A DNA stretch of 64,000 bases, from the IMG/VR virus record IMGVR_UViG_3300021091_000011, one strand, 5' to 3'. This DNA comes from a virus. Its lineage: Duplodnaviria > Caudoviricetes. The translations under genes were made by a program, and so were the position numbers. Positions 2,809 to 54,350 of the stretch are shown piece by piece; within the stretch, counting starts at the first letter, position 1, and each line of letters begins with the position of its first letter. The notes below the pieces were generated by a model. The model was not told where the DNA came from. It ran no database searches and saw only the letters and a list, made by a program, of their open reading frames with translations.

Positions 2809-3969
2809 TTAGCGGGTCGCAGCGTATCGAGCCGCAACGCGCTTCGCGCTCGCAATCAAACGGCGGGAAGCGCGACGGCGAATGTCCGATTGATACGTCC
2901 GCGCGATGTCCGTCTTGGACTCCAAGATGCGTTGGACACTAGAAGAAGCAAGGGCCTGCTTAATATCGTTGGCGACGGTTTCGCGGAAAACCTTGGCGAT
3001 ATAGGGGACCGCCTTCTGCAAGCCCGAAAGTGCGTTCACCGCGCTGCCGAGTTCGTTTTGCTTGATGCTGAAGTTATAAGCCTCGTCAACGTCCGTCACT
3101 AAATCAGGATTGCTCTGGATCGCCGTCCAAATCGCAATCTCGATATCACGTCGAACATCGGCGTCCGTGTTTCCATGGACGCGATCCGCACGGGCCTCGA
3201 TTCGGCCAATGACGGCGTTATTCAACGCCTTCTGAACATCACGGTCGCTCATCGCGCCCAAGAAGTCGAATGATTGATCTTCGACCGACGAGTAAGCGTC
3301 ACCAACCGTGACGATATCGCCGTCGTCCGTCGCGCCAGCAGAGGTGTCGATATCGACGAGACTCACGTTCTGCTCACCACGGAAAATGTCCGTCATGTAG
3401 TTAATGAGCGTTTTACGCGCGTAGGCGTCGACCTGAATCTCAAGAGAGTTTGAGCCCGTGCGCGCTTTTTCCGCGAACTCGTGCCCGATGAACCAATAGA
3501 AAGGGCGTCCTCTAGTACGAGCAAGCGAATCGCCCGTGAGCGGGTTCAAGCCCATGATGAGCGACTGCATGAGGTCATAAGGCTCAATGCGGGAGGCCCG
3601 AAACTTCGTCCGCTTAAGAGCGTTGACCGCCGTTTGATAGGGCTTGTTCTCGGGACCAAAGAAACTGAGCAACTCGTCAACCGAGTATTTCTCCAAGAGC
3701 GGGTCCACGAGCGGGTCCGAACCGCCGCTCTCTAAAGTCTGAACCACTTTGCTCAAAACCGAAGCCGCACGGTTCGCCAAAGTGTTCGGCTGCTTGCCCA
3801 AGAAACCCTCAAGAAACGAAATCTTGAGAAACTTGTTCATCAAAGGGGCTACAGCCCGAAGTTCTGACAAGTCATCTTTGCTCGCAGTACGAACAAAAGC
3901 AAGTCGAAGGAACGGATGGGCAAGCATCGCACGACGAACAATAGGGTGCAGCATCGGGAGAAACCTCAT
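2809..3969 (-). CDS. Hypothetical protein, possibly divergent sigma-70-like; C-terminal RVAARY tag
   Basis: 386-aa ORF. EPYDLMQSLIMG and YARKTLINYMTDIFR resemble sigma region 2; VSLVDIDTSAGATDDGDIVTVGD resembles region 3.2. Ends SAKRVAARYAATR. Confidence 0.4.
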   Translation of the reverse strand: MRFLPMLHPIVRRAMLAHPFLRLAFVRTASKDDLSELRAVAPLMNKFLKISFLEGFLGKQPNTLANRAASVLSKVVQTLESGGSDPLVDPLLEKYSVDELLSFFGPENKPYQTAVNALKRTKFRASRIEPYDLMQSLIMGLNPLTGDSLARTRGRPFYWFIGHEFAEKARTGSNSLEIQVDAYARKTLINYMTDIFRGEQNVSLVDIDTSAGATDDGDIVTVGDAYSSVEDQSFDFLGAMSDRDVQKALNNAVIGRIEARADRVHGNTDADVRRDIEIAIWTAIQSNPDLVTDVDEAYNFSIKQNELGSAVNALSGLQKAVPYIAKVFRETVANDIKQALASSSVQRILESKTDIARTYQSDIRRRASRRLIASAKRVAARYAATR

Positions 3970-4124
3970 TCGGGATAACGTGACCTACGCTGGAAAAATC
4001 GTATAGGCAGATTAAAAACCTAGCACATTCGCGCCTATTGTGGTTATATACCCCCTAGATACGCCACCGACACCGTCTAACCGACCCGTCCGGCGTCCCT
4101 CTCTACCTCACTACATCGGAGCCC

Positions 4125-5285
4125 ATGCTCACCATGAAGATTCGTCATCAGCGTTTTGTCGCCGTTCTTTCACACGTCATCGCCGCCAAGCCGACCACCG
4201 ACGTTGGGGCTTGGGATTCGATCTCCGCATCGATCAAGCGTGTTTCGTTGGAGCCTGCGCCGTTGGGCGTCCACGAAAACGTAGTACGCCGTGACGTGAT
4301 TACCGCCTTTGGCTACAAGGGCCAAGCCGACTTGGTGTTCGACACGCTGCGCGCGATTGCCGACGGCAACGCCGACGTTTTTGCGTCGCGCCTCGCCTGC
4401 GTCGAAGTCGTGTCCGCGCTCAACGTGATGCTCCTGCGCCCGCAAGCCGAAACGACGCGGGCGTGGATCAACAAAGCCCTTAGTAAAGGGCTGCATCAAC
4501 GCCTCTGCGATATGCTGGCCCGCTGCTTCCCCAATGAGGATAGAAGCGAACTCGCCAGCATGACCAACGCCTGCATCGCGGCGTGGTGCAAAAAGGACAG
4601 TCTCAAGTCGCTGCTCGACAAGCACGGCGATATTCCCGACAACGTCCTCTTGGGCTTTATCAAAAAACGCATGGCGAACGAGTTTCGTAAGCGCGGCGTC
4701 GATGCCCACACGCGGACGACGCACCATGCGCGCACCGAAACCGAGCGTCGTAAGAACGACCTGCTTGGCGTCGCCTCCGCAGAGAACACGGCTAAAGTTG
4801 TCTACAAGACCGAAACCGATAAAGATAACGACATCGTCGATCAAAGCGCGGGTGCAGAAGAATTGCTCTGCACGGTCGACTTAGCAGAATCGGGTTCGAT
4901 CATCCTCGAAGCCCTTTCGCCCAACGGCGGCATTCGGCGTAGTCAGATTCTCCGTTCGGTCCTAAACGGCGCAAGCCGACAAGACTTGATGCGCGAATTC
5001 GGGCTGGCAGAAAACCGCGTGAATCACCTGACGACAGAAATCAAGTCGTTCCTGCGCGAGTCCGACGTCCTGATCGACCATGCGCTCAAGATTGTCTCCG
5101 CGCTCAAAGACGAGCCGTGGTCGAGCACCGACGAGATTAGCGACGACGTGGGGCTGACCAAGAAGCAAGTCCGTGCCGCCTTGCACTATATGGTCCGTAA
5201 ACGGCTCGTCGTGGCGTCCAAGGACAAGTCCTGCTACAACCTCACGCCCGCAGGCTACCACGCCGAAATCAACCTCTACGCTTGA
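4125..5285 (+). CDS. ECF-sigma-like / HTH transcription factor with an extra C-terminal winged helix
   Basis: LLGFIKKRMANEFRKRG (region 2-like); LEALSP...RSQILRSVLNGASRQDLMREFGLAENRVNHL (region 4-like HTH); STDEISDDVGLTKKQVRAALHYMVRKRLV (wHTH). Confidence 0.55.
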   Translation: MLTMKIRHQRFVAVLSHVIAAKPTTDVGAWDSISASIKRVSLEPAPLGVHENVVRRDVITAFGYKGQADLVFDTLRAIADGNADVFASRLACVEVVSALNVMLLRPQAETTRAWINKALSKGLHQRLCDMLARCFPNEDRSELASMTNACIAAWCKKDSLKSLLDKHGDIPDNVLLGFIKKRMANEFRKRGVDAHTRTTHHARTETERRKNDLLGVASAENTAKVVYKTETDKDNDIVDQSAGAEELLCTVDLAESGSIILEALSPNGGIRRSQILRSVLNGASRQDLMREFGLAENRVNHLTTEIKSFLRESDVLIDHALKIVSALKDEPWSSTDEISDDVGLTKKQVRAALHYMVRKRLVVASKDKSCYNLTPAGYHAEINLYA

Positions 5286-5638
5286 CCCATCGGCTTCTTT
5301 TCCCACCAACCGTCTAAAGGGTCTGACGATGGAACAATCTCGTCGTCGTCCATGACGGTCAAACCAATCACAACGACGCCCATAATCGAATCAGGGTCGT
5401 AAACCTCAACGGCATCCAACAAGTCGCCGCCGCAGGTAAGCCTGACGCGAACCGTTCTGACCCTTATCTCACGGATGCTTAAGGTCGACAAAATCTCACC
5501 AGCACGCTCCAAGGCGTCCTCGGGATTAGCCATCAAACCAACCTGATGAATCAAGTTCGGTGAACCGTCTCGCACTTGACGGTTCACCACCATCCAAACA
5601 GGATAACTCGCGTCGCTAGGCACTCGAACAACTCCCAC
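5276..5638 (-). CDS. Hypothetical protein
   Basis: 120-aa ORF with globular-looking composition, convergent on the upstream gene. Confidence 0.5.
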   Translation of the reverse strand: MGVVRVPSDASYPVWMVVNRQVRDGSPNLIHQVGLMANPEDALERAGEILSTLSIREIRVRTVRVRLTCGGDLLDAVEVYDPDSIMGVVVIGLTVMDDDEIVPSSDPLDGWWEKKPMGQA

Positions 5639-6417
5639 TCAAAAAAAGACAAGCACCACAAGATTTGGTGGGCAACCTCTTTACAAGCCACCCACCACTC
5701 ACTATAACGCTTGACGGTCGCTCGCTTACCCCCATTACGCTTATATAAGCAGAATAGGGTTAAGAAGATTCCCTAGAGCCTTGGAAGGCCGCTGAAGAAT
5801 GTCCGGTTCTTCATGCCGACCCCAAGAGGAGTAGGGACGAGGGAAACCTCGGTGGCAAGGAACTCCACAAGCGACCTCGGTTCTCTGAACGCTCACAGAA
5901 ATCGACCAAATGGAACTTACAAGGTTCTTCGCCCTCGTTTGATTTTTCAAGCAAGGTGAAAGGGACTTGGGTGGTGAGGGATTAACTTTCCCACTACTAG
6001 GGTCTACTACTTGGATGCAGACTTCTAACCTAGCCTCGTGACCGGACAAGTCGATGAGGGTTACAAACTAGATACGAAGTCTGAGGGTTTCAAGTAGTCC
6101 GAAAACAAGGCTATCGTTAGGGGTAGCAGAGCAATCTTCGTTCATTCACAATATCTACTTACCCTTGAACACTCTAAACTATTTCCAGAACATATCTAAA
6201 CACCTTCAGATATGATGAAATAGATGTTAGTAGAGGTAATAAGTAGATATAGTAAGAACAGATTGTTCATAATAAGAGCAAAGAAGAATAAAGCGAAAAC
6301 GACAACAACAACGACAACAACAAATCAAGAGAGTAAGACTCAGACAACGGCTGCTAGTAAGAAGAAGAGTAAAGAGGATAAGGCTAAGAAGATGATGACG
6401 AATCATCCGATTGGTAC

Positions 6418-14042: not shown

Positions 14043-14699
14043 ATGAACAAGATTTCTTCTCAAGACCGAAGCGCGCTGATTAAATTAGCCGCAAGTCTGC
14101 CGCTCGGCTCTGCCGAGCGCAGGGTGATCCTCGCCGGAATCGGATACCGTTGGCTACCCGAGAACATTCGCGGGACATCGCCAAATGTCCCTTCTGAAAA
14201 CACGGACCTCGAAATCTGGACCTATGAAGTCGCCGGAAAGCCCTACGCCATCGCGTATCAGGGCAAGTCTAGCAAGCCGCTGTTTTACTCGTTGTTCCGA
14301 AGTGAAGAACAACGCCGGAACACGATTCAAAATGCAATCAATAGCCGCAAGTCGGCTATTGAAAGCAAAGCGTTGCGACGCAAAGAGCGTAGTGAGTATC
14401 AGCACACGCTCAAAGTGGGCGACATCCTCTACTCTAGTTGGGGATACGACCAAACCAACGTCGACTTCTACGAAGTCGTAGGCGTCAGCGGCAAAGCCGT
14501 CGCCATTCGTGAGATCGAACAGCGCGTGGTCGAAGGCAATGACTTTACAGAGAGGGTCGCCCCCATGCCGCGAAAGTATATCGGCCCCGTGCTAAAGAAA
14601 ATCCCGCGCGATAACTTCGTGCGCCTGAATAGTTTTTCAATTGCTCGGCTTTGGGACGGCAAGCCGAAGACGCAATCCGGCCCATACGGAGGCCACTAA
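14043..14699 (+). CDS. Leader-tagged protein with a common phage domain (SWGYDQTNVDFYEV)
   Basis: Starts MNKISSQDRSALIKLAASLPLGSAERRVILAG; C-terminal GDILYSSWGYDQTNVDFYEVV. Confidence 0.8.
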   Translation: MNKISSQDRSALIKLAASLPLGSAERRVILAGIGYRWLPENIRGTSPNVPSENTDLEIWTYEVAGKPYAIAYQGKSSKPLFYSLFRSEEQRRNTIQNAINSRKSAIESKALRRKERSEYQHTLKVGDILYSSWGYDQTNVDFYEVVGVSGKAVAIREIEQRVVEGNDFTERVAPMPRKYIGPVLKKIPRDNFVRLNSFSIARLWDGKPKTQSGPYGGH

Positions 14700-14748: not shown

Positions 14749-15126
14749 ATGAACAAGATTTCTTCGCAAGACCGAAGCGCGCTGATCAAGTTGGCATCAA
14801 GTCTGCCCGCAGGCGACGAAACCCGTCGCGCGATTCTCGCAGGCTTGACCAAACTCGCCGCCCCCTACAAGCACGACAGCACCACCAGCGGTGGTAAGCG
14901 TTGCCGCAATCAATCCTGCGGCGGCGTCGGCGCACCGGGCAAAGGTTTATCCGAGTACGACCTGCTCGCAAACTACGGCGATCACGTCGGCACCGACCAC
15001 GATCCCCAAAAGAATATGGCGGGCTATATGCGTTGGTGGCGTGAAAACCAAGGTCAACACAAAGACCGCACCGTGAGCCCCACGGGTGCAGGCAACGAGA
15101 CTTTCAATCCTCAAAAGAAGAAGTAA
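14749..15126 (+). CDS. Leader-tagged small protein
   Basis: GCAGGAG RBS; MNKISSQDRSALIKLASSLPAGDETRRAILAGLTKLAA followed by an unrelated ~90-aa domain. Confidence 0.75.
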   Translation: MNKISSQDRSALIKLASSLPAGDETRRAILAGLTKLAAPYKHDSTTSGGKRCRNQSCGGVGAPGKGLSEYDLLANYGDHVGTDHDPQKNMAGYMRWWRENQGQHKDRTVSPTGAGNETFNPQKKK

Positions 15127-15325: not shown

Positions 15326-16441
15326 ATGAGCATGATTTCGCGGGTTGCGCAGAGATTCTTGCAGGCAGACGCAGTCAAAATTCATTGGTGGTTTCTTGAC
15401 GCGCATGAGGACCCGACCGTCAAACGTGCCGCAGAACGGCTATGGGGTTCCGTCGGTTCCGGGCTGGCTGAGATTGCCCCCATAAATGCGAGACTGCGGG
15501 CAATGAAACCCGAGGACGCGCACACGCCCAACGGTTTTCAGACGGTGCGCGCCGACGTGAGTCTCGTTACAAGTCCGCAAGTAGAGGGCGTCGCTTTGCA
15601 CTTGGATTTTTCTTTGGACGGCCGGACGGTCCTGTTCAACTCCAAGTTGAGAGTCAATCACCCGAAGTTTGCGGCTTTGCATGGTAAGAAAGCAACGCCG
15701 GCCAAGATTCTGTCAATTCTCTTTGCGGACTTCACGCAAAAGAAAGCCGAGTCCAATGCGTTTCAAGACGAACTCGACGCGGAATATGCACGGGTTCGGG
15801 CAAACTTTCAGACGCAAGCCGAGGACTTCGCCAAGTTTCTAGCCTTCCAGATTCCCACACTTCGGTCCAACGTCCCGGCGATTACCGGGAGTGTCAAGTC
15901 CGTCACGGCTTCCGAGAATGGCTTTTCGGTCGTGTCGGAGTTCAAGACCGCCACGGGCAAGCCTTATCAGATAGGGTGTGACGTCCGAAACGGAACGTTG
16001 CAAATCACACGTTCTGACGGTAAGCCCGGGTCTAAGTTCTCGATAGACTCCGGGGACACACGTTCAGTCGGCAACGCCGTCCATCATGTTTTGAGTGTGG
16101 CCCGTGGCATTGCCAGTAGTGAGAGTCAGGCGTCGGACAAGGTGACGGCTCTGATTCAAGCCACGCGGACGGAAAAGGGCGGGCGAAACCGTAAGGTTTC
16201 GTTTATTCCTGGGAAGACCCCGCGTTGGGACGTTCGACCGGACACGCCGAAGTCTTTGGACCATTACGGTCCTGACGGTTGGGACGAAGACGCGTGGACG
16301 GAAGAATACGCGGAGCCGATTGAGACGGCGGTGCTCGCCGAGTTAGACGCCGCTTTTGGACGCGGTATGTTCCACATCGACGTAGAAGAGAACGGTGATT
16401 TCACCGTTTACGCGACTCCGGCTGGTGCCCGACTGTTCTAG
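15326..16441 (+). CDS. Hypothetical protein with an N-terminal RVAQRFLQA tag, lying between the 209-bp direct repeats
   Basis: 371-aa ORF starting MSMISRVAQRFLQAD. Confidence 0.75.
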   Translation: MSMISRVAQRFLQADAVKIHWWFLDAHEDPTVKRAAERLWGSVGSGLAEIAPINARLRAMKPEDAHTPNGFQTVRADVSLVTSPQVEGVALHLDFSLDGRTVLFNSKLRVNHPKFAALHGKKATPAKILSILFADFTQKKAESNAFQDELDAEYARVRANFQTQAEDFAKFLAFQIPTLRSNVPAITGSVKSVTASENGFSVVSEFKTATGKPYQIGCDVRNGTLQITRSDGKPGSKFSIDSGDTRSVGNAVHHVLSVARGIASSESQASDKVTALIQATRTEKGGRNRKVSFIPGKTPRWDVRPDTPKSLDHYGPDGWDEDAWTEEYAEPIETAVLAELDAAFGRGMFHIDVEENGDFTVYATPAGARLF

Positions 16442-16598: not shown

Positions 16599-16808
16599 AA
16601 AGACCGCACCGTGAGCCCCACGGGTGCAGGCAACGAGACTTTCAATCCTCAAAAGAAGAAGTAAGTAAGTCTCCCCCCCTAGCCCTTAGAAAAGCCCCTC
16701 TCGCTCGCGCAAGAGGGGCTTTTTTTATGCCCAAAAAGCGTATGATCACGCTATGCCTAGCAACACCGTTAGACTGATTCTCGGCGATAGCCTAGTCAAA
16801 CTCAAAGA
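16599..16808. repeat. 209/210-bp direct repeat, copy 2
   Basis: Matches 15061-15269 with a few substitutions and one extra C in the terminator stem. Confidence 0.92.
16689..16726 (+). terminator. Rho-independent terminator (duplicate)
   Basis: AGCCCCTCT-loop-AGAGGGGCT followed by a T-run. Confidence 0.8.
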
Positions 16809-17406: not shown

Positions 17407-17489
17407 TCATCCACGTCTTGAGAAAGCCGTTGTCAGACACGGTCGCTCAAAACGCCTTGGCTCATGGAGCCGGAGCAAGGTGCCATTGA
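17403..17489 (+). pseudogene. Truncated copy of the methyltransferase second part
   Basis: MIIHVLRKPLSDTVAQNALAHGAGA, then interrupted at about 17478 by the inverted endonuclease remnant. Confidence 0.8.
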
Positions 17490-18074: not shown

Positions 18075-18123
18075 GAGGTCACCACCTATGACAAATGAGG
18101 GAAACGGTCGTAGGGAGGGTCAG

Positions 18124-20630: not shown

Positions 20631-20674
20631 GCGTGTTTGCGTCGTCGAAGCCGCTTGGAATGGGTGAGGGAGAT

Positions 20675-23907: not shown

Positions 23908-23928
23908 TTGCTACTCCTGCTACGAATT

Positions 23929-24159: not shown

Positions 24160-24184
24160 TAGTTTGACTCCTTAATTTCACCGC

Positions 24185-45023: not shown

Positions 45024-45557
45024 ATGAACAAGCCGTCACCTATCCGTGTAGCAAGTCGCTATCTAAACGCCAGCCTCACGCTCGCCTTCGTCGGCAACGT
45101 CGGGGCCAAGAGCACTAAGATTCAGGACATTGGCGAAAAGGCCGCTGATGAACTCAAAGCGTTAGTCGGTGAAGCCGAAGCCGAAGCCTTGATTCGCAAC
45201 AAGTTGGCTCGGGACAAAGGCTTTTTCTTCCACGTCACGATTATTTCACCGCCCGAAGTGAAAGATATCGTGAACCGAATGGCCGCAGATAAAGCCATGA
45301 GCAAGTCCAAGGCATCGGACGAGTTCAAGGCCGAAGTCGAAGCGTTCGGCCTTACGGATAGCGGCTTGAAGTCACTCGGCTTGGGCAAGGCCGAGAAGGG
45401 CAGCGACGTGGCTTATTTCGCCGTTCTCGATTGGCCCGACGCTCAAAAACTGCGCGCCAAGTTCGGCTTGAGTGATTTCGATTTCCACACGACGATTGGT
45501 TTTGTTAAGGCCGACGTTCACGGCGTTCGCAAGAATCGATCTACTCTGATTCGCTAA
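45024..45557 (+). CDS. 2H phosphoesterase with an N-terminal RVASRYLNA tag
   Basis: Two HxT motifs: FFFHVTIISP and DFHTTIGF. Confidence 0.8.
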   Translation: MNKPSPIRVASRYLNASLTLAFVGNVGAKSTKIQDIGEKAADELKALVGEAEAEALIRNKLARDKGFFFHVTIISPPEVKDIVNRMAADKAMSKSKASDEFKAEVEAFGLTDSGLKSLGLGKAEKGSDVAYFAVLDWPDAQKLRAKFGLSDFDFHTTIGFVKADVHGVRKNRSTLIR

Positions 45558-45600
45558 CACGGCTATCGCCGTGTGATTGTTACACGACAGGGGACTTTCG

Positions 45601-46185
45601 ATGCGTAAGTTGAGTTCTGCTGATCGTTCGGCCCTGATCAAGTTGGCTTCCAGTCTTCCGTCTGGTTCGCCCGAGAGAAAGGCGATTCTCGCCGGACTTC
45701 AGGGTTCAAGCAAGAAGGCTTCTGGTGATGTTAACATTTCGGGTAAGCACATCACCGCTGCAGGGTACACCTACACGCCGAACGAGCTTCCGGTCTCGGA
45801 GATCAACCCCTCCAAGATCCCCAGTCGAACGGCCCGAGAGTACCAAAAGCGACTCCTCGTCGATCTCAAGAGGAAGTTCCCCTACAATGAGATCCGGCTT
45901 GACATGTTGGGGTTCATCACAGGCTCCCCCTTCACCTATATCAAGTTCAACGGTCTCGGGACCCGCCTGGACCTCGGGATGTGGTTCGACCAGAAGCCCC
46001 AGGACGTCTGGGTGCTCAGGCTCCACATTTCGTGGGGAAGCCACTACGAAAGCGGGAACTACAAGGCCATCGACATTCCTTGGGCTGGCGACCTCGACGC
46101 GATCTACGCAAAGGTCAAGAAGGCGTCAGTCACCCTCGTCGAGTTGGGGCTCTCGAAGATCGAGGAGGCCAAGGCCAGGCCATAA
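45601..46185 (+). CDS. Leader-tagged protein carrying a recently captured domain
   Basis: MRKLSSADRSALIKLASSLPSGSPERKAILAGLQGSSKKASGDVNISGKHI, then an unrelated domain with strongly C/G-ending codons. Confidence 0.8.
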   Translation: MRKLSSADRSALIKLASSLPSGSPERKAILAGLQGSSKKASGDVNISGKHITAAGYTYTPNELPVSEINPSKIPSRTAREYQKRLLVDLKRKFPYNEIRLDMLGFITGSPFTYIKFNGLGTRLDLGMWFDQKPQDVWVLRLHISWGSHYESGNYKAIDIPWAGDLDAIYAKVKKASVTLVELGLSKIEEAKARP

Positions 46186-46314
46186 CCCAGGAGTACCTGA
46201 TTGCCCTTCTACGGAATTAGAGCATGAAGCCTCATAAGGTTCCGTAGCGGATATTGGTGAAAAACCCGATTGTCGGGTCATCCAACGGAAACTCCAGAAT
46301 GGAACAGGAACACC

Positions 46315-47244
46315 GTGAAAAATAAGTCGATAGTGCTCGTTACTCTGACGCTCGCCTGCTCGCATCCGGTCGCCCGCGACGAGCCCGCGCCTCTCCTCAA
46401 CCCGTCTGCCGCGCCGCCCCCGACGCTGCGGACGCTCAAGATTACTTCCGAATGTGCGGACCCCATCTGGATTCAACAGGAGAACCACGCGGGTGCTCCT
46501 GCGCTCACGAAACTGACCAAGGGCACGTCAACTTCATTTAGTATCCCCGACGAAGGCTTGCCGTCTACGCGCTACTGGGCAAAGACGGGCTGCGACGCCA
46601 CCGGAAATAGCTGCGCGGTTGGACAGTCCTCGCCGCCTTGCCCCGCTGCTGGATGCGCTCCTCCGGTGGACAGCAAGTTGGAGGCAACGTGGGGCTGCAC
46701 GCTGCCAGAGGCGCAAAAGGAGCAATGCGCCAAGACGGATCAAGGACCACACGTCAAGAATACATGGTGGAACGCGAGTGCCGTTGACGGCTTCACGCTG
46801 CCCTTCCTCGTTGCGGTCAGCGGCGCATCCTCAGACGCCTGTGCGCCTGTCAACTGCGCCATGCTGGACCAGAACAAGTGTCCCGCGTCGGAATCCCTGC
46901 CGCCCGCCTACCCAGGTGGGGTGGATCTGCGTGTGCAGGGCGGTGCGGGGTGCTTCTCGCCATGCACGGCGCTCACCTATCCCGGCTTTGGCGGTAAAGG
47001 CATCCAACCGCCGAGCGACCCTCGCGCTGCCGCGTACTGCTGCCCGACGCCGCCTGTGTCGCCCGCACAATGCTCTAGTGGCCCTGCGGCGACGACGAAA
47101 TACGTCGAGGCTATCCACAAAATGTGCGCGGACACGACCTACGGCTATGCCTATGACGACGCGCTAGGTCTGCGTCAATGCGACCCAACAGTTGAACTTC
47201 AGCTTATTTTCTGTCCCGGTATTCCGGCAGTAGCGACGCCGTGA
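46315..47244 (+). CDS. Thaumatin-like (GH64-TLP superfamily) lipoprotein
   Basis: GTG start MKNKSIVLVTLTLA-C (lipobox-like); YWAKTGC, PPVDSKLEAT, WNASAVDGFTLP, GCFSPC, YCCP, YGYAYDD; many Cys. Confidence 0.78.
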   Translation: MKNKSIVLVTLTLACSHPVARDEPAPLLNPSAAPPPTLRTLKITSECADPIWIQQENHAGAPALTKLTKGTSTSFSIPDEGLPSTRYWAKTGCDATGNSCAVGQSSPPCPAAGCAPPVDSKLEATWGCTLPEAQKEQCAKTDQGPHVKNTWWNASAVDGFTLPFLVAVSGASSDACAPVNCAMLDQNKCPASESLPPAYPGGVDLRVQGGAGCFSPCTALTYPGFGGKGIQPPSDPRAAAYCCPTPPVSPAQCSSGPAATTKYVEAIHKMCADTTYGYAYDDALGLRQCDPTVELQLIFCPGIPAVATP

Positions 47245-47393: not shown

Positions 47394-47435
47394 TTCCCTA
47401 GTTTTGACGACGCCTAACAAGAAGGTTTGACCCCC

Positions 47436-47978
47436 ATGCGTAAGTTGAGTTCAAGCGACCGTTCGGCCCTGATTCGGCTTGCTTATGCCCGACCTGATCT
47501 TCGTCCCGCTCTTCTGCCCCTCTTGAAGAAGGCGAGTAACTTCCCCCGCGTCGTGAAGGAAGTCGAAGAGGACTACAAGCGCAAGGCAATAACGGTCAGA
47601 GAAAAGAACGAACTACTCGCCGCCATTGAGGACGCGGAGACTGAAGAACAAGCCATGGGGTTAGTAAGGAACCACCGTAAGGGGCGTGTTGCAAAAGAGG
47701 CTTCCGCATCCCCGTCTAACCCGCGCATCGTGCGGTTGCGCGATGGGAAGTTCGGCATCGAGTTCCACACCAACCGAGGCGTGTTCGTCTGGACGCAGAA
47801 CAAGAGTTTCACCCACTCATTCAAACTCGACCGCGAAGATGACCGAGATCGTTCTCCTTTGACTTACGATTCACCTACTGCGGCGCAATCGGGTATGAAA
47901 GAGGCTCTTTACGAAATCTATCGTTACCGACCAGGTGATGAAGACTTCGTGCGTGGGCACGAACCCGTGAAAGTTTAG
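47436..47978 (+). CDS. Leader-variant-tagged two-domain protein
   Basis: MRKLSSSDRSALIRLAYARPDLRPALLPLLKKAS; internal linker RKGRVAKEASAS. Confidence 0.75.
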   Translation: MRKLSSSDRSALIRLAYARPDLRPALLPLLKKASNFPRVVKEVEEDYKRKAITVREKNELLAAIEDAETEEQAMGLVRNHRKGRVAKEASASPSNPRIVRLRDGKFGIEFHTNRGVFVWTQNKSFTHSFKLDREDDRDRSPLTYDSPTAAQSGMKEALYEIYRYRPGDEDFVRGHEPVKV

Positions 47979-48621: not shown

Positions 48622-51600
48622 TCACAACCCCTCGTATCCCGCGATGATCTTAAACTCAGCGAATGACGCCTTGAAAGCAAACCCGAGCAAATCGGACCCA
48701 TGATCGGTCTCAATCACGATTTCGTCTTTGCCCCGATTCATGCACTTCGCCACCACCCGCGCCATGATTTCGGCAAGTTCCGGTGTCAGCCTATGCGCCG
48801 GAATCGTGTAGACGTGCCGCGATTGCGAAGATATGGGCATCACAAAATCAGGCGTGCTCTCAATCGGCGCGGCAACAGGGACCGCTTCGGCCACGGACTT
48901 TGCTTCGCCCACGCCGCCGTTCGCCAGATACTCAGCATAGAACTTCGGGAATACCCGCTGCCAACGCTCGGACCAAACTTCAGGCTTTGTCTCGCGCGGA
49001 TTCGTCATCGCTACGAGATTAAACGGCACCGTCCAATCATCGCCAAACTCGATGTCGTTCTTCAGCGGGATGATCCACCCGAGGTTTTTCACCGTGCGAA
49101 CCGTCATCAACTCATTGATCGTCACTACTGCTTCTTCGGCCAAGTCCTCATCGATCTCGAACACGAGTTCGTCGTGAATCGTCACACACATTCTAGCCTT
49201 ATCCAACCACCCGCGCTCTTTGCACTCGCGGTAAATAAGGCCCATCGCAAACTTCATAATGTCTGCGGAACTTCCTTGAACAGGGCCATTGACTGAGTTT
49301 CTTTCGGCCTTGGATCGGAACCCGCCGTCCGTGTGGTCAATGTCGGGCAATGGGTATTTACGGCCATAGGCCGTCGTGACGTACTTTTGCTTGCGCGCGG
49401 TCTTGTGCTGCTCTTCCCACCACTTCGCCAAGCCACGGTAGGACTTGTCAAACTGCCGCTTAATACGCCAGCCTTCTTCTTTGTCTACGCCAACCGAACG
49501 CTGCGCCGCAGACCCACCCCCGCCGTAACACATAGCGAAGTTGAGGCTATTATGAACTGCAAGCCCATTCGCCGCGTAGAGGTGATCTTCGGAGTCGATA
49601 TGCAGGTCTAGGCAAAGGGAATCGCCTGCCGGAACGATCAGCAAGACTTCATTCCCCAAGCGGTCATAGGCTTTGCTCGTGCCACTAATGCGCGCGATTT
49701 TGCCCGGATGCCGCATATAAGGTGCGATAAGCGCACCATCACGCCGCTTGAATCCGACTTTCACATACCATCTGGAATACTTCTTGTTCCACGACGTTGT
49801 GATTGTCGCCTCGCCGCCAATAGCACGAATGATCTCCGCGATCTGCCCCGCGAAAACAAAGTCCTTCGTGCAAATGTTAATGTCACCGCCTGATGACACG
49901 GAGCCGTCAGTATCAATCAAGCCGCCAAGATAGTGCGCCATAGCCGACCTGCCGCCTTGAAGAATCCAACGCGGCACTCGAAGCGTTCTTTTCGTCGACG
50001 GGCTACCGTCAACTAACCCGAGCGTCTGCATCCATCGAAGCACATGGCGGCTGCCTAGATAGACGTTCTTTTTTCTGGCGATTGGCTCTAACCCAACGTC
50101 CCGACACGCGGCCATGATGATTTCTTGCCACTCGGAGTAGCGGACCCCCAACGCATCCGTTTTCTCGACGGACCCATGCGTAATCGTGGCGCACGCCGTA
50201 CTAGAAGCACCATCCCCCGCGTGCAAGCCGCTGAAATAAGCCGTCGCCATTGTCGGCGTGTAGGCCATCTCAGGAACTCCTGCGAAAGCCTTGTGACTTA
50301 GTGTCTTCGGTTCTTGTTCATCGGCGGCAAGAAACACCGGAGCATGAAGCGTGTCGCCTGCTTTTAGACCTTCACGCAGAGATTTTTGCGTGCCGTCTGC
50401 CAACACGAACTTGTGCTCTTCAGAGCACGTCAAAACCCCTCTTCGGCTGACGACGTGGTAAAGGGGTTTGATGCCGCCGTTGTACGTCTCAAGTATTGGC
50501 GCAAAACCACCCTTCGGTGTAAGCACCTTTCCGGAATGCGGCTTGAATTCGTCCACACCACCAAAAGCGAGGTCACCGATGCGGGTGTACCCGCTATCCA
50601 TTCGGATCAGCGTGTCCGGATGCACGCACTTCGAGTTTTGGCGTTTTAGCTTGAAGTCGCTCTTTGACGGCGCATCTTCGCCGTAAATCGCCAATGCGGT
50701 CAGCGTGTGCAAGTCACCGATCTTGTCTGACCAACAAGACGGGCAGAAATGCGGAGGGCACGAACCCTTCTCAAAGCGGTGCTCACAACCCGAGCATCGG
50801 AAAAACTCATCAACCCACTTCGGCTCGCCCGAAAGATTCGTGACGATACGAAGCTCCACGCCCGAGTAGTCGATGGCGAACAGGATTTTGCCCGCCGTCG
50901 CTTTCACGCTCGTTCGCATCTTACGAACGCACTCAGGCTTAGACTTGTCATACGTCGCCGGAATCGAGTGTAGATTCCACCGCGATTGGCCCGTGAAATC
51001 CCCTGATTCAGAAGCGGGAGTTGAAAACCGCCCCGTGTCCGTCTTGGTAGCGTTGAACCCAACCCACAATCGACCGTCGGGGCTATTTCCAGGTGCTAGG
51101 TCATGGTAGACCGGAAACAGGTTAGACGAAAGCCCCTTTGCCACTTCACGGAACCGCTTGATTTTGGGCGCAAAGGGCAAGTCGTCGCCCATATCCTCGA
51201 AGATACGATTAATCTCATCCTTGCTCGTCTTGACCTGACCTGACTTTTCAGTCACGGTCAGCCCCTCGACGCCGAGTTCACGAAGCAAAAGCCCGAGTTC
51301 AGTCGGGATCGTCACGTCGTAGGTATTCGGAAACTGCACCGTCTCGCGCACTTTGGCGTCGGTGAGTGAAGGCACCGACTTCGGCACTTTCACGTCGGGG
51401 TCAGGCCCAAGGTCTTTAATGACCTGCTCCCGATGCTCCATGTACGACGGCTCCATGCAATCGGCATCGAATGGCGTATTGATTCGATGATGCTGCCCCT
51501 GCATGGACTTGAACCAACCGGGCCGCACATCGCGCCCCAAGATGGTTTCAATGCCCGCGTAAAGTTCAGCCAACGAGTCAAACCATTCGCGTTGGCCGAG

Positions 51601-52425
51601 CTTGATCAACTTGATAATCGTCGCGCGGTCCATTGGTACACGGCATCGCTCCATCCACCGTGTCGCCGTGACGCAAAGTTTCTCGATCTTGTAAACCGTC
51701 GCTTGGCTTTTACCGAAGGCGTCTTTTTGCGTCACTTCGGGATTCAGCTTGTGATAGAGCGCGAGAGTGTTAAGCGAGTCAGCCGCCGCATACCAGACGG
51801 TCGGCTCCCACTTTGGGTCGAGCGTCGAAAAGTCGAAACGCTTGGTCCCTGTGGGGAACAACTCGTTCAACTCAATCATTTCGCGCTCAAGCAACGTCTT
51901 AGCCAAATGCTTTAGACCGCGCCGCTTTTCACGCGCGTCCCGCAAATAGGCCAGCAGAATCGTGTCCTCCCACTTGGAGGGATCATCCCAACAGCCCATC
52001 GCGCCCGCGATATCGTGCTCTAAGAACTCTTGGTCGAACTTGCCGTTGTGAAACACCGTCACCGCACCGGACGCCTGAATCTTTAGGAGCAGGTCCCGCA
52101 CTAAACGCGGCGGGATATTAGCAGCGGCCCCGTCGTCTTTGTGGCGAATCGGCAAGTAATACGATTGCTTCTCATTCGGCGCGATGCAAACGCCAACAAT
52201 CTTGTCGTTGGTCACTTTAGAGCCATCTGGCTGCGTGAAAACACGCGCATCAAGGCCCGTTGTCTCAATGTCGAGCGCGTAGATTTTAGATTCGATGCAC
52301 TCGTCGGCGATGCGGTCTAAATCGGCCACGGTTGCCAGCGTTAGCGTGACGGTTTCCATCCACGGCTTTTTGCTCACCGTGGGGCGATTCAGGTCTTGCA
52401 GTTGGTCGAAGAAATCCATGCCCAC
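48622..52425 (-). CDS. polA: Family A DNA polymerase with 3'-5' exonuclease and an intein
   Basis: Exo I ALDIETTGL, Exo II FHNGKFD, Exo III YAAAD; motif A AIDYSGVELRIV; motif B KRQNSK|SLNFAMCYG; motif C IHDELVFE. Confidence 0.95.
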   Translation of the reverse strand: MGMDFFDQLQDLNRPTVSKKPWMETVTLTLATVADLDRIADECIESKIYALDIETTGLDARVFTQPDGSKVTNDKIVGVCIAPNEKQSYYLPIRHKDDGAAANIPPRLVRDLLLKIQASGAVTVFHNGKFDQEFLEHDIAGAMGCWDDPSKWEDTILLAYLRDAREKRRGLKHLAKTLLEREMIELNELFPTGTKRFDFSTLDPKWEPTVWYAAADSLNTLALYHKLNPEVTQKDAFGKSQATVYKIEKLCVTATRWMERCRVPMDRATIIKLIKLGQREWFDSLAELYAGIETILGRDVRPGWFKSMQGQHHRINTPFDADCMEPSYMEHREQVIKDLGPDPDVKVPKSVPSLTDAKVRETVQFPNTYDVTIPTELGLLLRELGVEGLTVTEKSGQVKTSKDEINRIFEDMGDDLPFAPKIKRFREVAKGLSSNLFPVYHDLAPGNSPDGRLWVGFNATKTDTGRFSTPASESGDFTGQSRWNLHSIPATYDKSKPECVRKMRTSVKATAGKILFAIDYSGVELRIVTNLSGEPKWVDEFFRCSGCEHRFEKGSCPPHFCPSCWSDKIGDLHTLTALAIYGEDAPSKSDFKLKRQNSKCVHPDTLIRMDSGYTRIGDLAFGGVDEFKPHSGKVLTPKGGFAPILETYNGGIKPLYHVVSRRGVLTCSEEHKFVLADGTQKSLREGLKAGDTLHAPVFLAADEQEPKTLSHKAFAGVPEMAYTPTMATAYFSGLHAGDGASSTACATITHGSVEKTDALGVRYSEWQEIIMAACRDVGLEPIARKKNVYLGSRHVLRWMQTLGLVDGSPSTKRTLRVPRWILQGGRSAMAHYLGGLIDTDGSVSSGGDINICTKDFVFAGQIAEIIRAIGGEATITTSWNKKYSRWYVKVGFKRRDGALIAPYMRHPGKIARISGTSKAYDRLGNEVLLIVPAGDSLCLDLHIDSEDHLYAANGLAVHNSLNFAMCYGGGGSAAQRSVGVDKEEGWRIKRQFDKSYRGLAKWWEEQHKTARKQKYVTTAYGRKYPLPDIDHTDGGFRSKAERNSVNGPVQGSSADIMKFAMGLIYRECKERGWLDKARMCVTIHDELVFEIDEDLAEEAVVTINELMTVRTVKNLGWIIPLKNDIEFGDDWTVPFNLVAMTNPRETKPEVWSERWQRVFPKFYAEYLANGGVGEAKSVAEAVPVAAPIESTPDFVMPISSQSRHVYTIPAHRLTPELAEIMARVVAKCMNRGKDEIVIETDHGSDLLGFAFKASFAEFKIIAGYEGL
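49549..50628 (-). mobile_element. Intein (360 aa) with a LAGLIDADG endonuclease in polymerase motif B
   Basis: Starts CVHPDTL; block B TCSEEH; YFSGLHAGDG and YLGGLIDTDG; ends AVHN followed by Ser. Confidence 0.93.
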
Positions 52426-52466
52426 TATACGCCGTCGGTAAAGCGTCTATCCCCACGCGGTAGCGT

Positions 52467-54350
52467 ATGCGCGTCGCAAGTAAAAATCAGCCCACGGACC
52501 CTGACCTGTGGGAGAAATCTAAAGCCAAGGCTAAGTCACGCTATAAAATCTGGCCGTCGGCGTATGCCGTAGGGCACGCGCTGAAAATCTACAAAGACGA
52601 AGGCGGCGGCTGGAAGAAGGCCAAGACCGCAGAGCGCGAATTCATAGCTTCCCGCGATTTCATGGCCCGTGGCAAAGCCAAAAAGGACGTCGGACACGGC
52701 GGGCTAGACGAGTGGTTTAGCGGTCACGGTGGCGACGAAGGCGAAGCGACTTGGGGCGATTGGGTGGCGATCAGCCCCATTAAGAAAACGCTAGAGTCCG
52801 GCAAGAAGGTCGTGCCGGGCGATATCGTCGGACCGTGCGGCGTATCGAAAGACCCCGATTGGTCTGAAGTCACGAACAAGGGCAAAGACCCCTTGAAGTG
52901 TATGCCGCGTCAAAAAGCACACGATATGAAAAAGTCCGAACGTGCTGAGTTAGCCAAGGCCAAGCAGAAAGCTGAGAGAAAAGACTCGAACAAAGGCAAA
53001 GCGCCCACGAATACGCCGACGTTCGAGAAATCATCAGCCGCCCGAGTCGCTAGTCGCTATCTTCAAGCCGCGCTTATCGGCGACCCTAAGCAGTTGCTCG
53101 CGGCTTACGAAAGCCGGATGGATTATCAAGAGCGCGAAGCCGAACGCGCGCAGGTAATACAAAACTACATCGAATCGCACATCGAAAAGCGTGAGTCTGA
53201 ACTTGTCAGCAATCTCAACGAACTTTCGTTTAACAGGGCATTGGTTCAGTATCAAGAACCAAACCTGCTAACTACGCTAAGTGGTGTGTGGGTGCGGCGC
53301 GAATCAGGGTCCAGCCTTAAAATTCAAGCCCTAATGTTGGGCCGTTCGTATGAATCAGGTTTCTTATATCTGCGTGAACACGCGCAACCGTTATTTTTGG
53401 CGATCTTGCAGCAGTTGTCTTTGCCCGCAAACCTGACGAAGAAAGTCCAAGCGGCATCGAAGTATTGGACGAAGTCGCGGCTCAACGCGCCCCGCCGTGA
53501 TAAGCGCCCTTGGGCTTCCGCGTTTCGCGGTATCGAATACCCCGATGCGTATTTGGCGCAGATGAGCGTGTGGCGTGAGCACATGGCTCTCGCCCGAGAA
53601 TGCCTCGCAAAAGGCGTCCCCCACGGCGAAGGCACCAAATCCAAGGTGCAAGCAGGCCCCTTCACGCTCGTCAACACGGGTTCGTTCTCCGATGAGGTCA
53701 TGGAGAACGTCAAGCAGGCCGTGTTGAAGTCTGCTAATGCGCTAACGAAGATCGGCTTGGGCAAAGTCTGCTACGGCGACATTCTGGTATCGAAGCAGAT
53801 CAAGTCCCGAAGCAACGTACTCGCGTTTTACTTGATCAACAGCGACGAAATGTTCGTTCGCGCGGACGCCAAAGCCACGCACGACATCGTGCAGACGATT
53901 TGCCACGAACTCGCGCACCGCCTTGAACACAAGTTCATGGGAAGCCCGAATCGTGATATCAACAGCCTTTACAACACCATCGCACGCTCCGACGCACAAG
54001 TTGTTGCCGTGTCCGGTTGGCCCGAAATCGGGCGTCGGATCACATACAAAAAACTCGACCTGATCGTGACGAAAGTAGATAAGGTCGGAAACAAAATCAC
54101 GTTCGAGCAGCCTCACGAGCCCGGCTTAACTAAGCGCCGTGTTTATTCCGCGCCGCTCGAATGGTGGGTTGAAAACATAGACGTTGGCGGGAAGATCGAG
54201 CGTAGTCCTGATTTCAAGGGCTTTATCACGCCCTATGCGAAAAAGGGCGGTCCTGGCGAAAACTTCGCCGAGATGGTGGCGTACTATGCGCTTGGCGAGT
54301 TGCCCGCTCCACTCGTCGCCTTGCTCAAGCCCGTCCTCGCCGCAAAGTAA
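52467..54350 (+). CDS. Multidomain protein: DUF5872-like modules, RVASRYLQA linker, C-terminal zincin metallopeptidase
   Basis: LWEKSKAKAKSRYKIWPSAYAVG; GLDEWF...WV...CG...LKCMP; SSAARVASRYLQAA; ICHELAHRLE (HExxH) and YAKKGGPGENFAE. Confidence 0.7.
   Translation: MRVASKNQPTDPDLWEKSKAKAKSRYKIWPSAYAVGHALKIYKDEGGGWKKAKTAEREFIASRDFMARGKAKKDVGHGGLDEWFSGHGGDEGEATWGDWVAISPIKKTLESGKKVVPGDIVGPCGVSKDPDWSEVTNKGKDPLKCMPRQKAHDMKKSERAELAKAKQKAERKDSNKGKAPTNTPTFEKSSAARVASRYLQAALIGDPKQLLAAYESRMDYQEREAERAQVIQNYIESHIEKRESELVSNLNELSFNRALVQYQEPNLLTTLSGVWVRRESGSSLKIQALMLGRSYESGFLYLREHAQPLFLAILQQLSLPANLTKKVQAASKYWTKSRLNAPRRDKRPWASAFRGIEYPDAYLAQMSVWREHMALARECLAKGVPHGEGTKSKVQAGPFTLVNTGSFSDEVMENVKQAVLKSANALTKIGLGKVCYGDILVSKQIKSRSNVLAFYLINSDEMFVRADAKATHDIVQTICHELAHRLEHKFMGSPNRDINSLYNTIARSDAQVVAVSGWPEIGRRITYKKLDLIVTKVDKVGNKITFEQPHEPGLTKRRVYSAPLEWWVENIDVGGKIERSPDFKGFITPYAKKGGPGENFAEMVAYYALGELPAPLVALLKPVLAAK

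What the first reader, a model, noticed from the sequence alone, without database searches (positions are those of the whole stretch)
2809..53070. Second, shorter tag RVAxR[YF]xxA at N-termini, in linkers and at a C-terminus
Seen: RVAQRFLQA (15341), RVASRYLNA (45045), RVASRYLQAA (53043, between domains) and RVAARYAA (2824-2841, extreme C-terminus of the sigma-like ORF). Weaker echoes are MRVASK (52467) and RVAKEAS (in the 47436 protein). The carriers are unrelated proteins and the motif is position-independent. Inference: an amphipathic docking helix or maturation-protease signal, possibly part of the same cargo system as the long leader.
Basis: partly seen in the sequence, partly recalled or inferred. 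Interest (0 to 1): 0.72.

Follow-up and report, generated by a model that had tools for sequence, protein, structure and literature searches.

The report
Portable helix tag on huge-phage proteins
Four unrelated proteins in this stretch of an uncultured huge lake phage carry the same short basic helix (R-V-A-x-R-Y/F), which relatives put on dozens of enzymes and between the parts of multi-enzyme proteins, most likely as an address label for loading them into the virus head, though no experiment shows this.

Summary
RVAxR[YF] occurs four times in real ORFs of the window: N-terminal at 15341 and 45045, at a fusion joint at 53043, and C-terminal at 2824-2841. Shuffles predict 0.04 sites. The codons differ synonymously, so selection acts on the peptide. 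The two 'echoes' (MRVASK, RVAKEAS) are background.

The tag is not private to this phage. A 297-kb relative has 20-22 sites against 0.23 expected. The zincin module behind the 53043 site belongs to a family of stand-alone proteins, and 73 of 109 start with the tag. Homologues of the other carriers keep it. It marks the gaps between enzyme domains (HAD, CCA-type nucleotidyltransferase, PAP2, topoisomerase IB, pyrophosphatase, ADP-ribosyltransferase) in polyproteins encoded between the portal, protease and capsid genes.

The extended consensus is [KR]-[AP]-S-[AP]-S-RVAx R[YF]-[AL]-x-A. AlphaFold2 models it as a short helix on a six-residue linker, with low confidence.

Best reading (about 0.45): a docking helix that loads cargo modules into the prohead, possibly next to a protease cut site. 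The receptor, cleavage and packaging are all unshown. Phage G and Tunturi_5, the cultured relatives, lack the tag, so no proteomics applies. This scan had already noted the same tag in other huge-phage genomes. I found no paper describing it.

The parts
15341..15367 (+). Tag copy 1, RVAQRFLQA, residues 6-14 (N-terminal; continues ...DAV like the zincin-family tag RVxARYLQADAI)
15326..16441 (+). Carrier 1 (P0002, 371 aa), no Pfam or PHROG family. Its last ~100 residues are a mobile domain found in 88 proteins of many lengths, 13 of which also carry the tag at an N-terminus, a joint or a C-terminus
45045..45071 (+). Tag copy 2, RVASRYLNA, residues 8-16, preceded by M-N-K-P-S-P-I (45024-45044)
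   Evidence: kept in homologues of 86% and 68% identity
45024..45557 (+). Carrier 2 (P0004, 177 aa), 2H phosphoesterase of the 'Swiss Army Knife' RNA-repair type (PF22547, E 3e-20). It lies directly after the two giant ORFs and directly before a long-leader gene
53043..53069 (+). Tag copy 3, RVASRYLQA, residues 193-201, preceded by E-K-S-S-A-A. It sits at the joint between an N-terminal basic module and a zincin module
52467..54350 (+). Carrier 3 (P0001, 627 aa). It is a fusion of an N-terminal module (about residues 1-170, then a Lys-rich linker) with a tagged zincin-like metallopeptidase module (residues ~190-627, HELAHRLEH). Homologues of the second module are stand-alone 400-450-aa proteins that begin at the tag
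2812..2841 (-). Tag copy 4, RVAARYAATR then stop (C-terminal), preceded by RRRASRRLIASAK
   Evidence: The tail is invariant in seven homologues down to 72% identity
2809..3969 (-). Carrier 4 (P0003, 386 aa), no Pfam family. It resembles sigma-70 region 2 proteins only as a weak lead (Atlas feature score 0.92, TM 0.24). It lies upstream of the RecD2-like helicase gene on the same strand
14043..14699 (+). Neighbour with the long two-helix leader (SSQDRSALIKLAASLPLGSAERRVILAG). Not part of the short tag, but co-clustered with it
14749..15126 (+). Second long-leader gene, 200 bases before carrier 1
45577..46185 (+). Long-leader gene 20 bases after carrier 2
47427..47978 (+). Long-leader variant (DRSALIRLAYARPDLRPALLPLL). 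It holds the 'RVAKEAS' echo, which I judge to be chance

Best explanation
RVAxR[YF] is the core of a portable peptide tag of about 12-15 residues. The consensus over 71 non-redundant sites is [KR]-[AP]-S-[AP]-S-R-V-A-[AS]-R-[YF]-[AL]-x-A.

It forms a short amphipathic helix on a flexible tether, with one hydrophobic face flanked by two arginines.

Shown: the tag is under strong peptide-level selection. It moves between unrelated proteins. It works at N-termini, at C-termini and at the joints of fused modules. It marks the boundaries of enzyme modules in multi-enzyme proteins encoded in the head-gene cluster of this phage clade.

Inferred: the helix docks each tagged protein or module onto one common, conserved partner inside the assembling prohead. 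Candidates are the shell, the scaffold or another core protein. In this way a kit of enzymes and regulators is packed into the capsid and probably delivered to the host with the DNA, as phage T4 does with its capsid targeting sequence and as proposed for phage 'polyvalent proteins'. In this window the kit would be a 2H phosphoesterase, a zincin peptidase, a sigma-like protein and one protein of unknown function.

More tentative: the conserved [KR]-x-[AP]-S element just upstream is a head-protease cut site that separates the modules after loading.
For: Enrichment
- Window: 4 sites against 0.04 expected.
- 297-kb relative G002: 20 against 0.23.
- Pattern counts against the backwards control in related contigs: 23 vs 5, 10 vs 1, 12 vs 3, 11 vs 1 and 10 vs 0.

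Peptide-level selection
- Synonymous codons differ between copies.

Conservation
- In 53 aligned zincin homologues of 33-64% identity, the tag columns (R 45/53, V 44/53, R 51/53) are well above the median column in information, 3.5-4.0 bits against 1.95.
- The tag is kept in homologues of carriers 2 and 4.

Portability
- 73 of 109 stand-alone zincins start with the tag, 7 also end with one and some carry two in tandem.
- 13 of 88 proteins that share only carrier 1's C-terminal domain carry it at either end or inside.

Detached helix
- AlphaFold2 model with pLDDT 91 overall but 59-69 for the tag helix, followed by a six-residue non-helical linker.

Cargo-like carriers
- ART-PolyVal (twice), GNAT, a C39-like peptidase, a weak NUDIX match, 2H-SAK, HAD_SAK_1, a CCA/poly(A) nucleotidyltransferase, PAP2, topoisomerase IB and inorganic pyrophosphatase.
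- This overlaps the repertoire of injected polyvalent proteins (PMC5512222).

Head context
- In G002 the ORFs between the portal (2986-4707) and the protease (19549-21045), and those just after the capsid gene (23342-24226), carry tags.
- In 80 head-module loci there are 43 tags, all on the capsid-gene strand, against 0 for the reversed motif.
- The gene right after the capsid gene starts with the tag, or an RVAxRH variant, in four of the six distinct sequences found.

Junctions
- Every internal tag checked lies between Pfam envelopes, for example HAD 30-179 | tag 198 | TopoIB 230-430, and InPase 678-802 | tag 817.

Precedent
- The T4 capsid targeting sequence and the giant-phage propeptides (PMC3012670, PMC5694885).
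Against: - There is no virion proteomics, cleavage or binding evidence for any carrier.
- The cultured relatives, phage G and Tunturi_5, show no enrichment, so their proteomes cannot be used.
- In this window the four carriers lie among replication and other genes, not in a head module. About 10 kb beyond the 5' edge holds no further copy.
- In G002 most tagged ORFs also lie outside the head cluster.
- Tag density in head modules (1 per 22 kb) is no higher than genome-wide in G002 (1 per 13 kb).
- The tag is unrelated in sequence and charge to the T4 signal, and unlike it also works internally and at C-termini.
- The upstream S/P/A-rich element could be a helix cap or a plain linker and not a cut site.
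Confidence: 0.45

Rival explanations
1. The tag binds some other common hub that is not in the capsid. Candidates are a replication or transcription factory component, a host protein such as RNA polymerase or a chaperone, or the two-helix 'long leader' carried by neighbouring genes (tag-to-tag bundling).
For: - In the window the carriers sit beside helicase, polymerase and clamp-loader-like genes.
- One carrier is weakly sigma-like.
- Short-tag and long-leader genes co-cluster.
Against: - The carriers are mostly not DNA-replication clients. They include ADP-ribosyltransferases, peptidases, phosphatases and an acetyltransferase.
- Up to five copies occur in one 1519-aa protein.
- Tags are strongly present in head-gene clusters.
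- The sequence does not match the known clamp-binding motifs (recalled from my own knowledge, not tested).
Confidence: 0.2
2. The whole element is mainly a protease recognition and cleavage signal that cuts polyproteins into modules, with no docking role. The protease would be the prohead protease or the tag-bearing zincin itself.
For: - Internal copies lie exactly at domain boundaries.
- The conserved upstream [KR]-[AP]-S-[AP]-S resembles KTAS, RRAS and KRAS sites in the scaffold-like, protease and post-portal proteins of G002.
- The zincin family nearly always carries the tag, and some members have it at both ends.
Against: - Many copies sit 4-8 residues from the initiator Met or 3-10 residues from the stop, where cutting would release only a few residues.
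- The helix core, not the putative cut site, is the invariant part.
- The zincin was not found in the tag-bearing contigs G003 (100% complete) and G004. It is present in the low-tag contigs G006 and G007, so it is not an obligatory reader.
Confidence: 0.15
3. The helix is just the native N-terminus of one old family (the zincin) and of a few others. It was carried along by gene fusion and has no shared function.
For: - The zincin family is the most widespread carrier, and even low-tag phages keep the tag there.
- In that family the tag continues into a family-specific ADAIGDP motif.
Against: - The tag occurs on many unrelated bodies, at C-termini as well, and with different flanks in different lineages: PS[PA]S in G002 and LT[LH] in G003/G004.
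- Enrichment of about 90-fold cannot come from one family.
- The four window carriers are mutually unrelated.
Confidence: 0.07
4. A degradation or unfolding tag (degron) read by a Clp-type or other AAA+ protease.
For: - Terminal, short and position-tolerant, like bacterial degrons.
- Phage G encodes ClpP and ClpX, which were detected in its particles (PMC12484599).
Against: - Phage ClpP (PF00574) is absent from the tag-bearing G002, G003 and G004, and present in tag-free phage G.
- Internal copies would not be accessible to such a protease.
- Tagging 13% of the coding capacity for destruction is unlikely.
Confidence: 0.04

Closest known systems
Capsid targeting sequence (CTS) of phage T4 internal proteins IPI-III and Alt, and the longer propeptides of phiKZ/SPN3US-type giant phages (PMC3012670, PMC5694885)
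   Same: A short peptide shared by otherwise unrelated, fast-evolving proteins. The carriers include host-modifying and anti-defence enzymes. The genes are linked to head genes. A possible protease site lies beside the signal.
   Different: There is no sequence likeness: the T4 signal is acidic and N-terminal only, is cut after L/I-x-E and is then lost. This tag is basic. It also works at C-termini and inside polyproteins, and at N-termini it would stay on the mature protein if the cut is upstream. Function is shown by experiment for T4 and not here.
Polyvalent proteins of phages and conjugative elements (Iyer et al. 2017, PMC5512222) and 'Swiss Army Knife' RNA-repair proteins (Pfam PF22547, PF10307)
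   Same: Multi-enzyme proteins with ART-PolyVal, zincin, 2H, HAD, nucleotidyltransferase and similar domains, encoded near portal and head genes and proposed to be packaged and injected. Autoproteolytic release by zincin domains has been proposed.
   Different: In my term search of that paper I found no shared linker or address peptide described, and the term 'linker' does not occur in it. There, head attachment is ascribed to MuF-type domains. Here the same enzyme modules occur both fused and as separate genes, and each carries the tag.
Encapsulin cargo-loading peptides (my own knowledge)
   Same: A short terminal peptide on a flexible linker that docks unrelated cargo enzymes to the inner face of an HK97-fold shell. 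The capsid protein here is HK97-like and unusually conserved: 82-94% across tag-bearing contigs.
   Different: The consensus is different, and binding to the capsid protein is not shown.
C-terminal sliding-clamp-binding tails of T4 gp43, gp55 and gp33 (my own knowledge)
   Same: A short terminal docking peptide shared by unrelated proteins, one of them a sigma-type factor.
   Different: The consensus and the client set are different, and copies occur inside polyproteins and in head modules.

Membership tests
T4-type capsid targeting sequence | N-terminal propeptide of 10-20 residues on head-internal proteins | tested here: not met
   Only 2 of 4 window copies and 4 of 22 G002 copies are N-terminal. 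The others are internal or C-terminal.
T4-type capsid targeting sequence | Removed by the prohead protease at a defined motif (L/I-x-E in T4; A/S/G-x-E in phiKZ-like phages) | not testable with these tools
   No proteomics exists for any tag-bearing phage. No x-E motif flanks the tag. A different candidate site, [KR]-[AP]-S-[AP]-S, lies upstream.
T4-type capsid targeting sequence | Sufficient to bring a foreign protein into the prohead; carriers found in virions | not testable with these tools
   Needs an experiment. The cultured relatives lack the tag.
Polyvalent / Swiss-Army-Knife multi-enzyme proteins | Two or more unrelated effector or repair domains in one polypeptide, drawn from the ART-PolyVal, zincin, 2H, HAD and nucleotidyltransferase repertoire | tested here: met
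   Relatives: HAD_SAK_1+TopoIB, PAP2+TopoIB, TopoIB+InPase and ART-PolyVal proteins of 900-1600 aa. Window: P0001 is a two-module fusion with a zincin, and P0004 is a solo 2H-SAK.
Polyvalent / Swiss-Army-Knife multi-enzyme proteins | Encoded next to portal and head-morphogenesis genes of a portal-terminase phage | tested here: inconclusive
   Met in G002 and in 80 head-module loci. Not met for the four carriers in this window, which holds no head genes.
Zincin-like metallopeptidase (module behind the 53043 tag) | HExxH zinc-binding motif with a further conserved Glu, and a zincin fold | tested here: met
   H296, E297, H300 and E414 are invariant in 53 homologues. There is a weak Pfam Peptidase_Mx1 match, which is precomputed on several homologues. 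Foldseek gives only weak zincin matches such as collagenase G, ERAP1 and Wss1, with E 0.08 or worse.
Encapsulin-type cargo-loading peptide | The peptide binds the inner face of the HK97-fold shell protein | not testable with these tools
   Needs a binding experiment or a solved structure.
Tat (twin-arginine) signal peptide | S/T-R-R-x-F-L-K followed by a hydrophobic stretch and an A-x-A site, N-terminal only | tested here: not met
   The arginines are four residues apart. No hydrophobic h-region follows in three of the four window carriers, and copies occur at C-termini and internally.
Phage Clp-type degron | Co-occurrence with a phage-encoded ClpP/ClpX | tested here: not met
   PF00574 is absent from the tag-bearing G002, G003 and G004, and present in tag-free phage G.

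The most novel reading that the evidence does not exclude
A very abundant clade of freshwater and soil huge phages has a capsid protein 82-94% identical across at least 590 IMG/VR contigs. It may use a modular address code, this short basic helix plus the longer two-helix leader. The code would load a changeable toolkit into the capsid for delivery with the DNA: topoisomerase IB, a CCA-type nucleotidyltransferase, phosphatases, ADP-ribosyltransferases, peptidases and even a sigma-like factor. Fused polyproteins would be cut into tagged modules by the head protease. The tag would then be a general, engineerable cargo-loading signal that is unlike T4's.
Probability: 0.3. Interest if true: 0.8.

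Novelty: new variant of a known kind. Interest (0 to 1): 0.62.

Why it matters
If the tag is a loading signal, it gives a simple sequence rule for predicting which of the hundreds of unknown genes in these huge phages encode virion-borne proteins that act first in infection. Anti-defence and takeover enzymes would be among them. It would also explain why their multi-enzyme proteins are built from interchangeable tagged modules. A short signal that works at either end or inside a protein would be useful for packaging foreign proteins in phage capsids. Even without the mechanism, the tag is a ready marker for annotating this clade.

Tried and rejected
Searches for the window's own genome
- No whole genome is held.
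- Exact-DNA searches in viral contigs and metagenome contigs found nothing.
- The look-up of encoding contigs returned only 3.6-35-kb fragments from JGI 3300020179 and 3300021376 and from SRR7990717, SRR7990527 and SRR7990546. About 10 kb beyond the 5' edge holds no further tag. A genome-wide census of this phage itself was therefore not possible, and G002 served as proxy.

Searches for relatives and annotation
- The search for related loci with the 2H protein found no relatives.
- megablast of the 1769-aa gene against phages found nothing.
- P0002 has no homologue in five related contigs.
- Pfam finds no family for the G002 protease or its scaffold-like protein.

Cultured relatives
- Phage G and Tunturi_5 show no enrichment, so the phage G particle proteome (PMC12484599) cannot test the idea.
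- Phage G gp2, annotated 'zinc-dependent peptidase', has an HxxEH motif (HFIEH), which I read as M16-type and unrelated to this zincin.

Candidate readers
- The zincin as obligatory reader is not supported by its distribution.
- Phage ClpP as reader is not supported.

Structure and complex predictions
- Complex prediction of the capsid protein (alignment A4) with residues 1-45 of the tagged post-capsid protein (A5) gave no verdict, score 0.00. It counts neither for nor against binding.
- The AlphaFold2 model of the 2H carrier from a 3-row alignment had pLDDT 47 and was not usable.
- Foldseek of the zincin model against the PDB gave no match at E 0.001 or better.

Literature
- Searches for this tag, for huge-phage cargo signals, and of the polyvalent-protein and jumbo-phage surveys found no description of it.

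Readings rejected
- A DNA-level repeat or recombination joint: the codons differ.
- A Tat signal.
- Chance.

Full report
**What the window is.** It is part of an uncultured huge phage.
- It encodes a RecD2-like helicase (2-2767, -), clamp-loader-like genes, and a family A DNA polymerase with a LAGLIDADG insert (48622-52425, -).
- It also encodes an SNF2 helicase, a DnaB helicase with an intein, ThyX, split DNA methyltransferase genes, and two giant ORFs of 3281 and 1769 aa.
- The 1769-aa protein has 42-48% identical relatives on IMG/VR contigs of 100-450 kb. Its N-terminal ~280 residues match more weakly a tail-fibre protein of Tunturiibacter phage Tunturi_5 (31% identity) and gp211 of Bacillus phage G (25.5%).
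- The capsid protein of those contigs is 42% identical to phage G gp27.
- No whole genome is held for the window. The same proteins occur on fragments from two JGI metagenomes and several SRA runs, and on one contig of 204 kb that I could not fetch.

**The observation.**
- A six-frame scan finds RVAxR[YF]xxA exactly three times, all in long ORFs on the + strand: 15341, 45045 and 53043. The variant RVAARYAATR-stop lies at 2812-2841 on the - strand.
- Two copies lie 5-7 residues after the start codon, one at residue 193 of 627, and one ends four residues before the stop.
- Among 62 non-overlapping ORFs (19,676 aa) the pattern RVA.R[YFW] occurs 4 times. Within-protein shuffles give 0.04 on average and never more than 2 in 1000.
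- The four copies use different synonymous codons at nearly every position, so this is a conserved peptide and not repeated DNA.
- For most pairs of carriers, all-against-all BLASTP finds no better match than the tag itself, and no match is significant.
The RVA tripeptide is no longer clearly in excess once the four tags are removed (13 against 9.6 +/- 3.2 expected). MRVASK is absent from an 83%-identical homologue.

**The tag is kept in each carrier's relatives.**
- Seven homologues of the 386-aa carrier, down to 72% identity, all end ...RRRASRxLxASAKRVAARYAA.
- Two homologues of the 2H phosphoesterase, 86% and 68% identical, keep M-[NK]-[KR]-P-S-P-[IK]-RVASRY.
- The part of the 627-aa protein that follows the tag is a zincin-like module. 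It carries HELAHRLEH, and its His, Glu, His and a later Glu are invariant in 53 homologues.
- It has at least 172 homologues, nearly all 400-450 aa long and covering 98% of the query. They are stand-alone proteins that begin where the window's tag begins.
- Of 109 such proteins, 73 have the tag or a close variant (R-V-[AVL]-x-R-[YF]) in their first 30 residues. Some have two in tandem, and 7 also end with one.
- In the alignment, the R, V and R of the tag are well above the median column in information: 3.5-4.0 bits against a median of 1.95.
- The 627-aa protein is therefore a fusion of an N-terminal module with a tagged zincin, and the 'internal' tag is the old N-terminus of the second module.
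- The 371-aa carrier has only one full-length relative. Its last ~100 residues are a mobile domain found in 88 proteins of 72-4088 aa. Of these, 13 carry the tag at an N-terminus, a C-terminus or inside. This is an independent replicate of portability.

**Related phages.**
- A degenerate DNA pattern for the core was counted on whole related contigs, against the same pattern read backwards:

| Contig | Tag pattern | Backwards control |
|---|---|---|
| G002 | 23 | 5 |
| G003 | 10 | 1 |
| G004 | 12 | 3 |
| G010 | 11 | 1 |
| G011 | 10 | 0 |
| G001, G005-G009, LR745208 | little or no excess | |
| Phage G | 1 | 1 |
| Tunturi_5 | 2 | 2 |

- I fetched all 297 kb of G002. RVA.R[YFW] occurs 20 times against 0.23 expected.
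- With I and K allowed there are 22 sites in 16 ORFs: 4 N-terminal, 2 C-terminal and 16 internal. Together these ORFs make up 13% of the coding capacity. One 1519-aa ORF holds five copies.
- In G003 and G004 the tag is almost always N-terminal: M-x(3-7)-RVAxR[YF].
- Over 71 non-redundant sites the consensus extends upstream to [KR]-[AP]-S-[AP]-S and downstream to [AL]-x-A.
- The upstream flank differs by lineage. It is PS[PA]S or AS[AS] in G002 and the window, and L-T-[LH] in G003/G004.

**What the carriers are and where they lie.**
- Pfam assigns G002 carriers to ART-PolyVal (two proteins), GNAT, a C39-like peptidase and, weakly, NUDIX.
- Large tagged ORFs in head-gene clusters hold HAD_SAK_1, a CCA/poly(A)-type nucleotidyltransferase, PAP2, topoisomerase IB and inorganic pyrophosphatase.
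- Every internal tag that I could place lies between the Pfam envelopes, never inside one. Examples: HAD 30-179, tag 198, TopoIB 230-430; PAP2 257-345, tag 403, TopoIB 406-608, tag 708; InPase 678-802, tag 817.
- In G002 the head genes are, in order: portal 2986-4707, protease 19549-21045, an acidic repeat-rich scaffold-like ORF 21055-22431, and capsid protein 23342-24226.
- The ORFs between portal and protease, and those just after the capsid gene, carry strict or degenerate tags at their ends and joints.
- In 80 loci centred on the capsid gene (936 kb) there are 43 tags in ORFs of 80 aa or more. All are on the capsid-gene strand, against none for the reversed motif.
- The gene just after the capsid gene starts with the tag, or an RVAxRH variant, in four of the six distinct sequences found.
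- This enzyme repertoire and gene position match what Iyer and co-workers call polyvalent proteins, which they propose are packaged and injected (PMC5512222). My term search of that paper turned up no shared address peptide.
- In the window itself the carriers are not next to head genes. They do sit beside genes with the longer two-helix leader (14043, 14749, 45577, 47427). The same co-clustering is seen in G002 (permutation P about 0.03 each, and the genes are not fully independent).

**Structure.**
- With 53 homologues, AlphaFold2 models the zincin module at pLDDT 91 and pTM 0.86.
- The tag is a helix (residues 4-16 of the segment) with pLDDT of only 59-69. A six-residue non-helical stretch (IGDPKQ) follows before the first long helix.
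- High sequence conservation with low packing confidence is what one expects of an element that binds something else.
- On a helical wheel V2, A3, Y6, L7 and A9 form one face, with R1 and R5 beside it (read from the sequence).

**Mechanism and its limits.**
- Shown: the tag is a selected, portable, position-tolerant helix that marks module boundaries and ends in a defined set of enzymes, many of them encoded in the head cluster.
- Inferred: it docks these proteins to a common partner in the prohead so that they are packaged, as the T4 capsid targeting sequence does (PMC3012670, PMC5694885).
- More tentative: the upstream [KR]-x-[AP]-S element is a head-protease site. Similar KTAS, RRAS and KRAS sites occur in the post-portal long-leader protein, the scaffold-like protein and the protease of G002. 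But the S/P/A-rich stretch could equally be a helix cap or a linker.
The zincin is not distributed as an obligatory reader would be, and neither is a phage ClpP.
- A striking but circumstantial clue: the capsid protein is 82-94% identical across all tag-bearing contigs, while the 1769-aa protein is only 41-48% identical across related contigs.
- Against the capsid reading: the window's carriers lie among replication and other genes, and most G002 carriers lie outside the head cluster. Tag density in head modules is no higher than elsewhere, and there is no proteomic evidence at all.

**Novelty.**
- Earlier notes of this scan describe the same RVAxR[YFW] tag in other huge-phage genomes (e1-5362272, e1-4119332, e1-5321482) and reach a similar reading. 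They gave me the two-part consensus as a lead, which I re-derived here on different DNA. They are not independent evidence.
- I found no paper that describes the tag.
- In kind it is a cargo or docking peptide, like the T4 signal or encapsulin loading peptides. It differs in sequence, charge and positional freedom, and in marking each module of multi-enzyme proteins.

Noticed in passing
IMG/VR loci L082-L161; G003/G004 (L080, L081): The 294-aa HK97-like capsid protein is 82-94% identical across at least 590 viral contigs, while the 1769-aa protein of related contigs is only 41-48% identical. That is unusually strong constraint on the shell protein of an abundant huge-phage clade.
   Followed up: partly
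window 48622-52425 (-) and 56722-59484 (+): The family A DNA polymerase carries a LAGLIDADG-type insert (about residues 829-883). The DnaB-like helicase carries an intein with a LAGLIDADG domain. A RecA gene with an intein lies just beyond the 5' edge (L164 17429-19924).
   Followed up: no
window 46270-47244 (+): A thaumatin-family protein (PF00314, E 1.7e-15) is encoded in a phage, between long-leader genes.
   Followed up: no
window 29809-39654 (+) and 39703-45012 (+): Two giant ORFs (3281 and 1769 aa) have no Pfam family. The N-terminal ~290 residues of the second match the Tunturi_5 'tail fiber protein' and phage G gp211. Neither ORF carries the tag.
   Followed up: partly
window 62533-62961 (+): The N-terminus MNIRVSAKRVAIARM looks like a degenerate tag with one extra residue (compare ...IASAKRVAARY at 2809-3969). 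It was not counted as a copy.
   Followed up: no
window 15326-16441 (+), residues ~265-371: The C-terminal ~100 residues of this carrier are a mobile domain of unknown function. It is found at varied positions in 88 proteins of 72-4088 aa (best E 6e-19).
   Followed up: partly
G002 21055-22431 and 4734-5834 (L082, L054): The first ORF is scaffold-like and extremely acidic (pI 4.4), built of repeats (EEASDEEEAKGKKARALRAKALRMLRLAD). The post-portal protein combines the long leader with three GLKTAST...AKYNTKLRATD repeats.
   Followed up: no
window 16753-19806 (+): The DNA methyltransferase is split into separate genes, and two copies end in the same EPIIVARKPI-stop. Others in this scan have already noted this.
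   Followed up: no
G002 285824-287254 (L068): A long-leader variant, MPTFTSDDRKILVRYASTLPSGSPE, has a first helix that reads like the short tag (K-I-L-V-R-Y). This hints that the two tags may be related.
   Followed up: no
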